DNA of 64,000 nt from a phage. The stretch lies in sequence record PZ338877.1; one strand, written 5' to 3'. Position numbers and translations under genes: made by a program. The notes under the pieces were generated by a model. It saw nothing but the letters and a program-made list of their open reading frames with translations. It was not told the DNA's origin and searched no databases. Positions within the stretch are counted from its first letter, which is position 1, and each line of letters opens with the position of its first letter. Shown piece after piece: positions 51,422 to 55,094 of this stretch.

Positions 51422-51979
51422 TTACTTTCTTAGTGGATGAATAAAGAATGCCAACATAACTCTTTCCCTTGAGAATGCTCTTTCTTCTGGGACAACACTT
51501 TTAAGTTTCCATCCAACATAAATTCTCCAGTAGAATTGTTTACCAAAGACTTTAATTGATGGGATAAAGGCGAATAATCCCCAAGCATTACTGTTCCACA
51601 TTAGGAGATAACCTGTCTGATTATCTTCAGGGTCAGAACTTACGTTGATATTACCTTTCCACTTAGTAACATCTTTTACATCTCTTCCTAACACATGGTA
51701 AGAGAAGTTATAAGCTTTGTTTCTCCAGAGCCATCCAACTCTCTGCAAATAGACACCCAGCTTACCAATCTTTCTAATCTTAGCCCATCTTTTAATGTGA
51801 CCTTCATCACCATCAATTGGGTTGTCATATGTCTCCATCCATCTGAATCCGAAAGGTAGATGTCCTTTCTTCTCACTATAGAATGGAACTACAAAAGGTG
51901 CTAAGATAACTGCTAAGGTTGCTGCCAATGGGTCTAACAAAGCTAGGAAAATCCATGAAGCATACTTCAAATATCTCAT
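51422..51979 (-). CDS. membrane protein embedded in tRNA array
   Basis: 185 aa; N-terminal hydrophobic helices (ASWIFLALLDPLAATLAVILAPFVVPF). Confidence 0.45.
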   Translation of the reverse strand: MRYLKYASWIFLALLDPLAATLAVILAPFVVPFYSEKKGHLPFGFRWMETYDNPIDGDEGHIKRWAKIRKIGKLGVYLQRVGWLWRNKAYNFSYHVLGRDVKDVTKWKGNINVSSDPEDNQTGYLLMWNSNAWGLFAFIPSIKVFGKQFYWRIYVGWKLKSVVPEERAFSRERVMLAFFIHPLRK

Positions 51980-52074: not shown

Positions 52075-52188
52075 TTACCTACAAGAACACCATACAGTTT
52101 TTCACAATCTTTGTTTTTACGTCTGTTTAGGTATGACGCTCTAAACTTTTTTGCTATTGACTTATCACTCATAGTGCTCTCCCAAAAT

Positions 52189-52267: not shown

Positions 52268-52342
52268 TGGTGCTCACTAAAGGACTTGAACCTTTTTCTT
52301 CATCTTGTAAGGGTGATGTTTTACCATATAAACTAAGCGAGT
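52268..52342 (-). tRNA. tRNA-Val (anticodon UAC)
   Basis: T-arm AAAGG-ACTTGAA-CCTTT, anticodon loop TTGTAAG (rc CTTACAA), D-stem GTTT/AAAC. Confidence 0.7.
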
Positions 52343-52437
52343 ATGAAAGAGGTCTGAAGTTGTGCCGCTCACTCAACTCCGTGGAATTTGTTACGGTCTT
52401 CAGTTGACACCAGCGGTCTTTCACTTGACCTCTGAAT
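52343..52437 (-). ncRNA. structured non-tRNA element inside tRNA array (candidate small RNA)
   Basis: 95 nt between tRNA-Val and tRNA-Thr; closing 7-bp helix AGAGGUC/GACCUCU plus internal inverted repeats; lacks T-loop consensus; contains a GGTCTTCAG motif copy. Confidence 0.3.
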
Positions 52438-52513
52438 TGGTGCTCCCACAAGGATTCGAACCCTGATAAGTTGCTTACAAGGCAACCGTAATAGCCAATT
52501 ATACGATAGGAGC
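52438..52513 (-). tRNA. tRNA-Thr (anticodon UGU)
   Basis: T-arm CAAGG-ATTCGAA-CCCTG, perfect anticodon stem GTTGC/GCAAC with loop TTACAAG. Confidence 0.8.
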
Positions 52514-52844: not shown

Positions 52845-53097
52845 ATTAAATCTTTTTAGAGAACTTCTAAGAACCTAAGCAACAAGGTTCCACAACAAGC
52901 TGTAATAACCTTAGAAGCCCTCTAAAAAGACCTAAATATGTCTTTGCATAGTCTTGTTTAATCCGGTGACTAGAACCTTTGGAGAGCTTGATATTATCTC
53001 TTCTCCGTGACACCTACTAGGTGCTTTATCAGTGTGTACGACAATACACGAGGGATAAACCGAAAATGCGAGCAAGCATGACGGTGTAAATCTTATT

Positions 53098-53201: not shown

Positions 53202-53284
53202 TGGCATGGGACGGAGGAGTTGAACCCCTTTGAAACGGTTTTGGAGGCCGTTGCTCATGCCTTAGAGTCTTAACATCGTCCCAC
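53202..53284 (-). tRNA. atypical tRNA-Trp-like gene (anticodon core CCA, 9-nt anticodon loop)
   Basis: T-arm GGAGG-AGTTGAA-CCCCT, acceptor ATGGGAC/GTCCCAC, CCA encoded; anticodon stem AACGG/CCGTT encloses 9 nt (tRNA sense CCUCCAAAA); D region about 8 nt longer than canonical. Confidence 0.5.
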
Positions 53285-54073: not shown

Positions 54074-54275
54074 ATTAAATTACCTTTGCAGTAACCTACG
54101 CAGACCTTGCTAAAGGGTCTGTAGAGTCATTTCCTCTTAAGCTAATCTAGAATCATGCTAAGGAAATTCATCGGCACTCATGGGACGACATAATTAGCCA
54201 CATAAGCTACTGCAAAGATAATTACCAGACCGTTGTTTATCATCTTAAGTGCTACCATTACACCAACTCGACATC

Positions 54276-54321
54276 TGCCGAGTGAAGGAATCGAACCTTC
54301 GCCTTTTCTTTACCGGAGAAA
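54276..54321 (-). pseudogene. tRNA-like fragment (3' half only)
   Basis: intact T-arm GAAGG-AATCGAA-CCTTC and 3' acceptor strand plus a 5-7-5 hairpin, but no complementary 5' acceptor strand; anticodon loop has C at position 33. Confidence 0.35.
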
Positions 54322-54336
54322 TAGATTGTTTAAGTT

Positions 54337-54360
54337 TTGCTGTAAACGGTCTTCTGTAAA
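54337..54360. repeat. short repeat family copy (TTGCTGTAAACGGTCTTCTGTAAA)
   Basis: one of 4-5 copies of TTGCTG(Y)A(W)(W)(Y)GGTCTTCTG within tRNA array. Confidence 0.7.
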
Positions 54361-54423
54361 TTTGTTGAGCCAGACCAAGTTTTAAATTTTTCAAAATTAA
54401 ATTGGCTTGAAATTTTAAGTAAC

Positions 54424-54444
54424 TTGCTGTATTTGGTCTTCTGC
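54424..54444. repeat. short repeat family copy (TTGCTGTATTTGGTCTTCTGC)
   Basis: same motif family. Confidence 0.7.
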
Positions 54445-54850: not shown

Positions 54851-54902
54851 TTAATACATTGCCAGACCGTGTTTTTTTCTTTTATCCGCAAAAAGTAGTT
54901 TG

Positions 54903-54927
54903 TTGCTGCATACGGTCTTCTGCAAAA
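54903..54927. repeat. short repeat family copy (TTGCTGCATACGGTCTTCTGCAAA)
   Basis: same motif family, immediately 3' of tRNA at 54929. Confidence 0.7.
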
Positions 54928-55005: not shown

Positions 55006-55069
55006 ATTCTTAATGACCAGACCAAATCTCTTCTTTGTCCGATTTACCTTCAGATGAATAAGATTAAGT

Positions 55070-55094
55070 TTGCTGTAATTGGTCTTCTGTCAAA
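55070..55094. repeat. short repeat family copy (TTGCTGTAATTGGTCTTCTGTCAAA)
   Basis: same motif family, immediately 3' of tRNA-Glu. Confidence 0.7.

What the first reader, a model, noticed from the sequence alone, without database searches (positions are those of the whole stretch)
52343..52437. 95-nt structured non-tRNA element wedged between tRNA-Val and tRNA-Thr
The segment lies within 1-2 nt of the flanking tRNAs. It is closed by a 7-bp helix (AGAGGUC...GACCUCU in RNA sense) and has further internal inverted repeats (CUGAAG/CUUCAG, CCGCU/AGCGG), but no T-loop consensus or recognisable cloverleaf. It contains a variant of the GGTCTTC(W)G motif repeated elsewhere in the array. It would be co-transcribed and excised with the tRNAs, making it a candidate small RNA.
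Basis: seen in the sequence. Interest (0 to 1): 0.6.

Follow-up and report, generated by a model that had tools for sequence, protein, structure and literature searches.

The report
Conserved structured RNA between phage tRNAs
A 95-base stretch between two tRNA genes of a Felix O1-type phage is a conserved, folded, non-tRNA RNA element present in every sequenced relative checked, a new example of the still-unexplained small RNAs that some phages carry inside their tRNA gene clusters.

Summary
The window comes from a Felix O1-like phage (Felixounavirus). Its 26 tRNA genes lie on the - strand. Positions 52343-52437 are exactly the spacer between tRNA-Thr and tRNA-Val.

The spacer is not a tRNA and matches no Rfam family. 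It is single-copy, and all 253 Felixouna-, Moogle- and Suspvirus records covering the locus have it. It is at least as conserved as the flanking tRNAs. An 80%-identical copy sits just after tRNA-Gly in Avunavirus phages, a different subfamily. Erwinia phage phiEa21-4 lacks it.

A 27-nt core (GUCAACUGAAGACCGUAACAAAUUCCA) is almost invariant. The G-U wobbles fit only the tRNA-sense transcript.

Best reading: a discrete small RNA cut out by the tRNA-maturation nucleases that works in trans, analogous to T4 RNAC/RNAD. This is inferred. No expression data exist and the function is unknown.

The core shares a C(W)GAAGACCGU motif with four other structured spacers. One of them holds a covarying, circularly permuted tRNA-like fold resembling a Y RNA.

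The parts
52343..52437 (-). The whole 95-nt element, which is the complete spacer between tRNA-Thr and tRNA-Val
   Evidence: ARAGORN coordinates. Covariance model R1 scores it at 121.8 bits and finds a single copy in the window.
52438..52513 (-). Upstream tRNA-Thr(tgt) with encoded CCA. Trimming of its 3' end would define the 5' end of the element.
52268..52342 (-). Downstream tRNA-Val(tac). RNase P cleavage at its 5' end would define the 3' end of the element (inferred).
52434..52437 (-). 5' linker AUUC. With the last A of the CCA it forms a short unpaired A/U-rich stretch of the kind RNase E cuts (inferred).
   Evidence: Sequence. The other spacers of the array start the same way, for example CCA-AUUUUG and CCA-GUUUUGA.
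52427..52433 (-). P1 5' strand AGAGGUC (RNA positions 5-11)
   Evidence: MFE fold. Pair 9-89 changes G-C to U-A in the Avunavirus lineage, with a G-U intermediate elsewhere.
52348..52354 (-). P1 3' strand GACCUCU (RNA positions 84-90)
52413..52416 (-). P2 5' strand CCGC (RNA positions 22-25)
   Evidence: 100% paired. G-C changes to A-U in L051, with a G-U intermediate in L071.
52365..52368 (-). P2 3' strand GCGG (RNA positions 70-73). It lies in the loop of the Alt hairpin, so P2 and Alt together form a pseudoknot.
52374..52380 (-). Alt helix 5' strand GGAGUUG (RNA positions 58-64). It excludes P3 and P4.
   Evidence: 100% paired in 29 distinct sequences. Four of 7 pairs vary, one changes A-U to G-C, and no cell is broken. 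It is part of the MFE fold in Av-05 and L054.
52356..52362 (-). Alt helix 3' strand CAACUUC (RNA positions 76-82), 1 nt upstream of the P1 3' strand
52382..52408 (-). Near-invariant 27-nt core GUCAACUGAAGACCGUAACAAAUUCCA (RNA positions 30-56). It contains the C(W)GAAGACCGU motif shared with four other spacer modules.
   Evidence: Identical in 53 of the 54 collected copies; L042 differs at one base (G to A in CCGU). Motif sharing.
52402..52407 (-). P3 5' strand UCAACU (RNA positions 31-36), pairing with 52373-52378 in the rod-shaped alternative fold
   Evidence: MFE fold of Felix-like sequences. No double change and two natural disruptions of the terminal pair.
52393..52396 (-). P4 5' strand CCGU (RNA positions 42-45), pairing with ACGG at 52379-52382 in the rod fold. 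It is preceded by the 5-nt bulge GAAGA and capped by the loop AACAAAUUCC.
   Evidence: MFE fold. Broken in wV8 (G59A) and L042 (G44A), G-U in the Avunavirus lineage. The same CCGU/ACGG pairing closes modules 2 and 4.

Best explanation
The spacer encodes a discrete, single-copy, structured non-tRNA RNA. Its body is about 86 nt and is closed by a 7-bp terminal helix. It occupies a tRNA-sized slot in the phage's tRNA array.

Shown here. It lies on the tRNA-sense strand with no promoter or terminator between it and its neighbours. It is universally conserved in the Felixouna-, Moogle- and Suspvirus clade and in Avunavirus. Three helices are kept by compensatory or wobble changes. P1 pairs the two ends. 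Alt is a hairpin 1 nt upstream of the P1 3' strand. P2 pairs an upstream CCGC with the loop of Alt. This topology matches a tRNA acceptor stem, T arm and D-loop/T-loop contact, but none of the tRNA sequence signatures are present. The near-invariant 27-nt core is either exposed (Alt form) or folded into an apical hairpin with a GAAGA bulge (rod form, P3/P4). The two forms are close in energy.

Inferred. The RNA is transcribed as part of the poly-tRNA precursor and released by the tRNA-maturation nucleases. An RNase E-type cut or exonucleolytic trimming in the A/U-rich 4-5 nt after the upstream CCA would make its 5' end. RNase P cleavage at the 5' end of tRNA-Val would make its 3' end. The paired ends would make it stable. 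It would then act in trans through the core, most likely as a binding site for a protein, because the same C(W)GAAGACCGU motif is also invariant in four other structured spacers of the array. That makes it a functional analogue of T4 RNAC/RNAD or of small Y-type RNAs. Its partner and its benefit to the phage are unknown.
For: The phage is a Felixounavirus and the array is on the - strand. No Rfam family and no tRNA model matches. There is one copy per genome. The element is in 260 phage records at 80-100% identity and in all 253 records that cover Gly to Leu-caa. Among 25 distinct Felix-like haplotypes the element shows 16% variable columns and 95.7% mean identity, against 38% and 85.2% for tRNA-Thr and 16% and 94.2% for tRNA-Val. 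In Av-05 and TH18 it follows tRNA-Gly, and similarity begins and ends at P1. The block Gly, element, DUF7338 gene is syntenic with Felix at 88%, 77% and 75% nucleotide identity. Covariation: the rod model is 98.3% paired with 2 double-change pairs. Alt is 100% paired with 4 of 7 pairs varying. P1+P2+Alt is 98.8% paired with 3 double-change pairs and a covariation score of 0.119, against at most 0.070 for slid controls. The wobble pairs are G-U on the - strand only. No promoter or terminator lies nearby. The motif is shared with four modules, and in the module 4 region compared it is unchanged across genera. T4 RNAC and RNAD are a precedent for stable non-tRNA RNAs flush against tRNAs in a phage tRNA cluster (PMC3014915, PMC9697503).
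Against: No transcript data exist, so neither accumulation nor the RNA ends are shown. Variation is small: 29 distinct sequences from essentially three lineages. Each compensatory change is one or a few evolutionary events, and the two robust covariation measures are reached by 13-17 of 500 shuffles, which is suggestive rather than decisive. Other long spacers of the array are also 78-91% conserved against the divergent contig L054, so conservation alone does not single this one out. In Av-05 there is no downstream tRNA, so the proposed 3'-end mechanism cannot be general. No complementary target of 11 nt or more exists in the window, and no host match was found. P2 together with Alt needs a pseudoknot with a 2-nt linker, which may be strained. 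The two may instead belong to different conformers.
Confidence: 0.5

Rival explanations
1. The element is a cis-acting processing or insulator spacer. Its stable hairpin would keep neighbouring tRNAs from misfolding into each other. It would also present the single-stranded A/U-rich linkers to RNase E and RNase P. After cleavage it would be degraded and would have no function of its own.
For: In all three lineages it sits 4-6 nt after a tRNA CCA end. Several other spacers of the same array are also closed by long-range helices and start with CCA-(A/G)UUUUG. Those spacers are conserved too.
Against: A purely structural spacer does not need a 27-nt near-invariant sequence in loops and bulges. 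In Av-05 the element is not between two tRNAs. The upstream tRNA is different there and the downstream neighbour is a protein gene. phiEa21-4 processes Thr and Val with only a 7-nt spacer.
Confidence: 0.2
2. The element is an evolutionary relic with no present function. It could be a decayed tRNA gene or a decayed copy of the CAGAAGACC...GGUCUGG spacer modules. Its apparent conservation would reflect the low divergence and frequent recombination of these phages.
For: It fills a tRNA-sized slot with tRNA-like linkers and a 7-bp terminal helix. Its apex looks like a miniature module: CUGAAGACCGU, a 10-nt loop, then ACGG. phiEa21-4 lacks it. Degenerate tRNA-like pieces exist elsewhere in the array.
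Against: It is no less conserved than the tRNAs next to it. None of 253 genomes has lost it. It is retained at 80% identity, with compensatory changes, in another subfamily where the surrounding non-coding DNA is not alignable. It has no sequence similarity to the phiEa21-4 tRNA-Trp or to any tRNA model.
Confidence: 0.12
3. The element is a catalytic or switching RNA. One option is an undescribed self-cleaving ribozyme that frees the 3' end of the upstream tRNA, as HDV-like theta ribozymes do downstream of phage tRNAs. The other is a two-state switch (rod versus Alt) that responds to a ligand or protein.
For: It always lies directly 3' of a tRNA. A near-invariant core is flanked by covarying helices with a possible pseudoknot. 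Two mutually exclusive folds are close in energy. Theta ribozymes set a precedent for ribozymes flush with phage tRNAs (PMC10879173).
Against: No Rfam ribozyme or riboswitch model matches, even at E<=10 on 121 nt. Manual threading onto the HDV fold fails. The strand that would have to pair with the first nucleotides after the tRNA is absent, and the 5' linker is not conserved between Felix and Av-05. The upstream tRNAs carry an encoded CCA and ordinary short U-rich trailers like the other tRNAs in the array.
Confidence: 0.08
4. The element acts at the DNA level, for example as a protein binding site, a recombination or homing-endonuclease target, or a promoter, or it encodes a micro-protein. 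It would not act as an RNA.
For: Homing endonuclease genes are inserted nearby in relatives: Felix O1 has an HNH gene between tRNA-Gly and tRNA-Thr. The GGTCTTCWG word is repeated in the array.
Against: The G-U wobble pairs and G-U intermediates are strand-specific and would be A-C mismatches on the other strand or in a DNA cruciform. No promoter-like or terminator-like site lies in or next to the element. The overlapping ORFs run into the tRNAs and lack conserved start or stop codons, and an indel (GC-TGG versus GCTTTG) breaks the frames.
Confidence: 0.03

Closest known systems
Phage T4 RNAC and RNAD (species 1 and 2 stable RNAs in the T4 tRNA gene cluster)
   Same: They are non-tRNA small RNAs encoded flush against tRNA genes in a virulent phage's tRNA cluster. 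T4 rnaD starts 1 nt after tRNA-Arg and rnaC 6 nt after rnaD. Their size class is 119-139 nt against about 90 nt here. They are co-transcribed and processed with the tRNAs. Their function is still unknown (PMC3014915, PMC9697503).
   Different: There is no sequence or structure homology: model R1 finds nothing in the T4 locus. The T4 RNAs carry canonical tRNA-like features at their 3' ends that are absent here: RNAC has a GGTTCGAATCC T-arm and RNAD ends in ...CACCA. The T4 RNAs are experimentally detected; this element is not.
tRNA-precursor-derived regulatory RNAs of E. coli (3'ETS-leuZ, the internal spacers of metZWV)
   Same: These are spacer or trailer pieces of poly-tRNA transcripts. They are released by RNase E and RNase P during tRNA maturation and then act in trans (my own knowledge: Lalaouna et al. 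2015, Mol Cell). That is the release mechanism proposed here.
   Different: Those RNAs work by base-pairing to Hfq-dependent sRNAs and are shorter and less structured. No complementary partner was found for this element, and it is phage-encoded.
Bacterial Y RNAs (YrlA, YrlB)
   Same: They are 80-130 nt RNAs with a stem formed by the 5' and 3' ends, large internal loops and a conserved protein-binding motif. The YrlA family has members in phages (PMC4201824). A sister module in this same array has the YrlA architecture: terminal stem, V arm, T arm, capped acceptor, D arm.
   Different: The focal element has no T or D arm and no GNCGAAN0-1G motif. No Rfam family of any kind matches it. No Ro60 gene is known nearby.
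HDV-like theta ribozymes downstream of phage tRNAs
   Same: They are a structured, pseudoknotted RNA placed immediately 3' of a phage tRNA (PMC10879173).
   Different: The fold cannot be threaded onto the HDV P1/P2/P3/P1.1 scheme, no Rfam model of any family (ribozyme families included) matches, and the first nucleotides after the tRNA are not conserved.
The CAGAAGACC...GGUCUGG spacer modules of the same array (undescribed; see Noticed in passing)
   Same: They share the 10-11-nt motif C(W)GAAGACCGU followed by an A-rich ACA..AA stretch. They lie in the same tRNA-flanked position, and the same CCGU/ACGG pairing is found in modules 2 and 4.
   Different: In the modules the motif is the 5' strand of the closing helix and has a GGUCUGG partner. 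In the element it sits at the apex, the partner reads ACGGAGUUG, and the closing helix is a different sequence. Avunavirus has the element but no modules in the 3-kb loci held here.

Membership tests
tRNA (including intron-containing and degenerate tRNA) | Cloverleaf with D, anticodon and T arms and a T-loop consensus | tested here: not met
   ARAGORN finds nothing, with introns allowed and with thresholds lowered to 60-80%. The Rfam tRNA model gives no hit at E<=10 on 121 nt. A 5-bp T-arm register is broken in the majority sequence (GUUAGC).
tRNA (including intron-containing and degenerate tRNA) | 7-bp acceptor-type helix formed by the two ends, with a hairpin directly 5' of its 3' strand | tested here: met
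   P1 (7 bp) and the Alt hairpin 1 nt upstream of the P1 3' strand are both kept by covariation. This is a match of topology only.
Any Rfam 15 family (4227 models) | Match to a curated covariance model | tested here: not met
   Nothing at E<=1 in 6.5 kb. At E<=10 on 121 nt the only hits are two trivial snoRNA fragments on the opposite strand. The Av-05 copy also gives nothing.
HDV-like / theta ribozyme | Nested double pseudoknot in which the first 6-7 nt after the cleavage site form P1 with an internal strand | tested here: not met
   No internal strand complementary to the post-tRNA nucleotides is conserved: AUUCAG in Felix versus UCUAAA in Av-05. No Rfam model of any family, HDV families included, matches.
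HDV-like / theta ribozyme | Self-cleavage in vitro | not testable with these tools
   This needs a transcription and cleavage assay.
Bacterial Y RNA (YrlA/YrlB) | GNCGAAN0-1G motif near the 5' end, and T- and D-arm-like stem-loops | tested here: not met
   Neither the motif nor the arms are present in the 95 nt (sequence; definition from PMC4201824). No Rfam family of any kind, Y-RNA families included, matches.
Bacterial Y RNA (YrlA/YrlB) | Encoded next to a Ro60 (TROVE) gene | not tested
   The neighbouring genes examined were only DUF7338 and small proteins of unknown function. The rest of the genome was not screened for TROVE.
T4 RNAC/RNAD-type stable RNAs of phage tRNA clusters | Non-tRNA RNA gene abutting tRNA genes within a phage tRNA cluster, on the same strand | tested here: met
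T4 RNAC/RNAD-type stable RNAs of phage tRNA clusters | Homology to T4 rnaC or rnaD | tested here: not met
   R1 finds nothing above noise in the T4 locus, and the sequences are unrelated by eye.
T4 RNAC/RNAD-type stable RNAs of phage tRNA clusters | Accumulates as a discrete stable RNA in infected cells | not testable with these tools
   No transcriptome of a Felixounavirus was found.
CAGAAGACC...GGUCUGG spacer modules of this array | 5' motif C(W)GAAGACC(R)(W) | tested here: met
   CUGAAGACCGU lies at RNA positions 35-45.
CAGAAGACC...GGUCUGG spacer modules of this array | Distal ..GGUCUGG strand pairing with AGACC.. to close the unit | tested here: not met
   The partner reads ACGGAGUUG, so only CCGU/ACGG pairs. 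Model R1 does not find the modules (11 bits, E = 4.5).

The most novel reading that the evidence does not exclude
The element could be one member of a set of phage-encoded, tRNA-array-embedded RNAs that share the invariant C(W)GAAGACCGU recognition motif. Another member of the set would be the permuted-tRNA, Y-RNA-like module at 54225-54356. Together they would assemble with one protein partner into an RNP that manipulates host tRNA or RNA repair, turnover or anti-phage defence. Alternatively, the element itself could be a new self-cleaving or switching RNA class that handles tRNA 3' ends.
Probability: 0.12. Interest if true: 0.8.

Novelty: new member of a known kind. Interest (0 to 1): 0.5.

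Why it matters
Felix O1-type phages are classic Salmonella typing phages and common candidates for therapy and biocontrol. Hundreds of genomes are deposited, yet in the records inspected this 95-nt gene-sized element is either unannotated or covered by spurious ORFs.

Small non-tRNA RNAs in phage tRNA clusters have been known since T4 RNAC and RNAD, and their function remains unexplained. This is an independent family with three useful properties: a near-invariant 27-nt core, a small covariation-supported fold, and natural presence/absence contrasts (Felix O1 versus phiEa21-4, and Avunavirus). That makes it a tractable second system for asking what such RNAs do.

The motif it shares with four other spacer modules also suggests that the "spacers" of this array are a coordinated set of RNAs rather than filler.

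Tried and rejected
1. tRNA with an intron, or a degenerate tRNA. ARAGORN with -i and lowered thresholds found nothing. There is no similarity to the phiEa21-4 tRNA-Trp, which Felix lacks.
2. HDV-like or theta ribozyme. Manual threading failed, and no Rfam model of any family matched.
3. Mimic of the 16S rRNA decoding-site strand (UGAAGUCGUAACAA), an idea from memory. Local alignment to the whole rrnH operon scores at or below the shuffle mean: sense 18 against a mean of 20.7, antisense 20 against 20.7.
4. Copy of a host sequence. There is no blastn match in 5,426 E. coli genomes. The core pattern is absent from 185,579 bacterial and archaeal genomes.
5. Base-pairing target inside the phage. 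No complement of 11 nt or more exists, and 9-10-mers occur at chance level. An RNAduplex scan timed out.
6. Protein coding. The ORFs overlapping the element run into the tRNAs and are not conserved.
7. Promoter or terminator. None was found.
8. Functional link to the neighbouring DUF7338 gene. It is syntenic in Felix and Av-05. But contig L054 keeps the element with only 248 nt where that gene would sit, and the protein has no known function.
9. More distant homologues. Degenerate core patterns in IMG/VR and in metagenomes returned only Felix-like or Avuna-like copies plus chance hits. R1 found nothing credible in phiEa21-4, RB16, IME-CF2, STML-198 or T4. The best hit, at 15.4 bits, is antisense inside a coding gene.

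Full report
**What the window is.** A 1.2-kb stretch around the finding matches 309 phage records. Nearly all are Felix O1-like myoviruses (Felixounavirus and relatives, subfamily Ounavirinae) at 90-99% identity (annotation). ARAGORN finds 26 tRNA genes, all on the - strand, between 50062 and 55258.

**Checking the observation.**
- tRNA-Thr(tgt) is at 52438-52513 and tRNA-Val(tac) at 52268-52342. The reported segment 52343-52437 is therefore exactly the spacer between them.
- In RNA sense it reads AUUC AGAGGUC ... GACCUCU UUCAU. The 7-bp closing helix, CCGCU/AGCGG and CUGAAG/CUUCAG are all present.
- The minimum-free-energy fold is a long irregular hairpin of -29.9 kcal/mol. Its z-score is -2.47, and 3 of 200 shuffles fold as well, so energy alone is modest evidence.
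- No tRNA can be forced onto it. ARAGORN with introns and lowered thresholds finds nothing.
- No Rfam family matches, at E<=1 over 6.5 kb or at E<=10 over 121 nt.
- The repeated word is real. Exact GGTCTTCWG occurs five times on one strand between 52395 and 55089 and only twice in the other ~61 kb.

**Conservation and distribution.**
- blastn with the 95 nt alone finds 260 phage records: 199 at 95% identity or more, 55 at 90-95% and 6 at 80-90%.
- All 253 records that cover tRNA-Gly to tRNA-Leu(caa) contain the element. Records that lack it belong to other genera and match only through the tRNAs.
- Among 25 distinct Felix-like haplotypes the element has 16% variable columns and 95.7% mean pairwise identity. 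tRNA-Thr exists as two diverged alleles and has 38% and 85.2%. tRNA-Val has 16% and 94.2%.
- The six 80-90% hits are Avunavirus-type phages of another subfamily, Vequintavirinae (Av-05, TH18 and relatives). There the element directly follows tRNA-Gly and precedes a 75-aa gene and a DUF7338 gene.
- Similarity to Felix begins at the first base of the closing helix and ends at its last base. The larger block is syntenic: tRNA-Gly at 88% nucleotide identity, the element at 77%, and the DUF7338 gene at 75% nucleotide and 81% protein identity. The sequence between these pieces is not alignable.
- In Erwinia phage phiEa21-4, also an Ounavirinae member, tRNA-Thr and tRNA-Val are 7 nt apart. The element is therefore an insertion or deletion difference within the subfamily.
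- Degenerate searches for the core in IMG/VR, metagenomes and 185,579 prokaryotic genomes returned only Felix-like and Avuna-like copies, one more divergent Felix-like contig (L054) and chance hits.
- The element occurs once per genome.
- It has no counterpart in E. coli genomes.

**Structure.** I built covariance model R1 and aligned 54 copies, of which 29 are distinct.

The rod model derived from the MFE fold has four helices:
- P1, RNA positions 5-11 with 84-90
- P2, 22-25 with 70-73
- P3, 31-36 with 60-65
- P4, 42-45 with 56-59

The rod is 98.3% paired and has two compensated pairs:
- In P1, G-C changes to U-A in the Avunavirus lineage, with a G-U intermediate in another contig.
- In P2, G-C changes to A-U in L051, with a G-U intermediate in L071.

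P3 and P4 show no double change. They carry four natural disruptions: wV8 G59A, L042 G44A, TH18 A65C and L054 A65U.

Folding Av-05 and L054 on their own gave a different hairpin, GGAGUUG (58-64) with CAACUUC (76-82). On the alignment this Alt helix is paired in 100% of cells. Four of its seven pairs vary, one changes A-U to G-C, the wV8 change turns a G-U into an A-U, and no cell is broken. Its covariation score is 0.196, against 0.062 for the rod.

Alt excludes P3 and P4 but is compatible with P1. With P2 it forms a pseudoknot, because the P2 3' strand lies in the Alt loop. The P1+P2+Alt model is 98.8% paired with three compensated pairs. Thirteen to 17 of 500 shuffles reach the two robust measures, and slid controls fall to 34-47% paired.

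Without pseudoknot energy, the rod is favoured by 4-7 kcal/mol in Felix-like sequences. Alt is slightly favoured in Av-05 and L054. The data therefore fit either a pseudoknotted fold or a two-state RNA.

All wobble pairs are G-U on the - strand, so the structure belongs to the tRNA-sense transcript and not to the DNA or the opposite strand.

The topology of P1, Alt and P2 is that of a tRNA acceptor stem, T arm and D-loop/T-loop contact: a terminal 7-bp helix, a hairpin 1 nt upstream of its 3' strand, and an upstream segment pairing with that hairpin's loop. The 86-nt body with 4- and 5-nt linkers fills a tRNA-sized slot. None of the tRNA sequence signatures is present, so this is a resemblance and not membership.

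**The near-invariant core and its relatives in the array.** RNA positions 30-56 (GUCAACUGAAGACCGUAACAAAUUCCA, window 52382-52408) are identical in 53 of the 54 collected copies across both subfamilies; L042 carries a single G-to-A change.

The core's first part, C(W)GAAGACCGU, recurs in four other spacers of the array: 55089-55017, 54922-54862, 54443-54370 and 54356-54225, all on the - strand. In those spacers it is the 5' strand of a long-range helix closed by ..GGUCUGG. The two variable positions covary between copies: AGACCGU/ACGGUCU, AGACCAA/UUGGUCU and AGACCGUU/AACGGUCU.

The motif and its partner in module 4 are unchanged in Michonne, Sf13 and EP1. The apex of the focal element (CUGAAGACCGU, a 10-nt loop, then ACGG) looks like a miniature version of such a module. 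Avunavirus has the element but no modules in the loci held here.

**What it most likely is and does.** No sigma-70-like promoter or intrinsic terminator lies between the nearest upstream promoter-like site (about 53824) and the element or its neighbours. Co-transcription with the tRNAs is therefore the simplest reading.

The upstream tRNA carries an encoded CCA followed by a short A/U-rich single strand and then a stem. The other tRNA-to-spacer junctions of the array look the same. From established E. coli tRNA maturation, RNase E cuts just after CCA, exonucleases trim the trailer, and RNase P cuts at tRNA 5' ends. On that basis the element would be released with paired, protected ends. This step is inferred, not shown.

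Three features argue for a function of the released RNA itself rather than a role as packing between two particular tRNAs:
- the core is almost unchanged in sequence, not just in structure;
- the element is independent of the identity of its neighbours;
- no genome among more than 250 has lost it.

Because the same motif is invariant in four other structured spacers, a shared protein partner seems more likely than a base-pairing target. No target was found in the window. I put this explanation at 0.5.

The rivals are a cis-acting processing spacer (0.2), a functionless relic (0.12), a new ribozyme or switch (0.08) and a DNA-level element or micro-ORF (0.03).

**Comparison with known systems.**
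- The closest known kind is the pair of stable RNAs in the T4 tRNA cluster, RNAC and RNAD. They abut tRNA-Arg in the same way and their roles are still unknown (PMC3014915, PMC9697503). There is no homology. The T4 RNAs keep canonical tRNA-like features at their 3' ends, a T arm in RNAC and a CCA end in RNAD, which are absent here.
- Spacer-derived regulators of E. coli tRNA operons, such as 3'ETS-leuZ, share the proposed release mechanism but not the mode of action. This comparison rests on my own knowledge.
- Y RNAs share the general shape but not the defining motif or arms.
- HDV-like theta ribozymes share the position after phage tRNAs but not the fold.
- I found no mention of this element in the Felix O1 genome paper or in the other literature searches.

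**Verdict.** The interpretation as a candidate small RNA is supported by comparative evidence but not by expression data. The fold needs revision. The element is a new, narrow family of a known kind of feature. Interest is moderate (0.5).

Noticed in passing
window 54225-54356 (- strand), in the tRNA-Asp to tRNA-Lys(ttt) spacer: This is a circularly permuted tRNA-like fold. In RNA order it runs: closing strand CAGAAGACCGUU, an arm UUUCU/CCGGUAA/AGAAA, a canonical T arm (GAAGG UUCGAUU CCUUC), acceptor 3' strand ACUCGGC, a 4-nt cap, acceptor 5' strand GUCGAGU, a D arm (GUGU AAUGGUA GCAC), and closing strand AACGGUCUGG. ARAGORN calls a cloverleaf once the two halves are swapped. The capped acceptor hairpin covaries across genera: GUCGAGU/ACUCGGC in the window, GGCGUGU/ACACGUU in Sf13 and EP1, and GAAGGGU/ACCCUUC in Michonne. 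About 246 phage records conserve it, and most of those listed have no annotation under the match. The architecture equals that of the bacterial Y RNA YrlA (PMC4201824). However, it has no 5' GNCGAA motif, and the only Rfam hits at E<=10 are a partial tRNA match and three weak hits to unrelated families. It may be more interesting than the focal finding.
   Followed up: partly
window 55017-55089, 54862-54922, 54370-54443 and 54225-54356 (- strand): These are a family of four structured spacer modules. Each begins (U)UUxCAGAAGACC(R)(W)(W)UACAGCAA(A)ACUUAA and ends (W)(Y)GGUCUGG. The long-range closing helix covaries between copies. Two of the modules directly follow the CCA ends of tRNA-Glu and tRNA-Met. 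Contig L054 has three modules, and phiEa21-4 has none in its tRNA array. Their function is unknown.
   Followed up: partly
window ~53202-53261 (- strand), in the tRNA-Arg(tct) to tRNA-Ser(tga) spacer: This is a degenerate tRNA-like piece with a T arm, a CCA end and a loop containing CCA (CCUCCAAAA). The Rfam tRNA-Sec model scores it at 23 bits and ARAGORN misses it. tRNA-Trp is the one amino-acid specificity ARAGORN does not find in the array, whereas phiEa21-4 has a normal tRNA-Trp.
   Followed up: no
window 52075-52188 (- strand), between tRNA-Arg(acg) and tRNA-Leu(caa): This 114-nt spacer is present in some relatives and replaced by a 5-nt spacer in others, such as SME50. It contains a 35-44-codon ORF that runs into tRNA-Arg.
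   Followed up: no
window 52846-52935: A near-perfect hairpin with 26-nt arms lies in the tRNA-Ser(tga) to tRNA-Leu(tag) spacer (inverted repeat I1). It produced a spurious Rfam MIR473 hit. The spacer is 83% conserved in L054.
   Followed up: no
window 51422-51979 (- strand); L043 2387-2535; L044 2076-2237; L045 2077-2214: The DUF7338 gene that follows the tRNAs here has homologues in T4-like phages (RB16, IME-CF2, STML-198). There it is likewise preceded by tRNA genes and then an unannotated gap of about 140-160 nt. By eye, the RB16 gap resembles T4 rnaC (GTAGCG...GTTCGGAATATG). No Rfam family matches the gaps of RB16 and STML-198.
   Followed up: partly
window 52438-52513 and homologous loci: tRNA-Thr occurs as two diverged alleles among otherwise near-identical Felixounaviruses (ACGGTTGCCTTGTAAGCAAC... 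versus ACACATCCCTTGTAAGGATGG...). The stems differ by compensatory changes, while the adjacent element stays constant. This suggests mosaic exchange of single tRNA genes.
   Followed up: no
L005 1339-1411 (Escherichia phage Av-05): An unannotated tRNA with an atypical T loop (GGCAGAG) lies here. The Rfam tRNA model scores it at 53 bits and ARAGORN misses it.
   Followed up: no
GenBank records GU169904 (Staphylococcus phage SA1), MG065664 (Campylobacter phage A132), OK283618 (Listeria phage LPML1): Records named for unrelated hosts contain Felix O1-like sequence at 78-99% identity. They are probably contaminated or chimeric assemblies.
   Followed up: no
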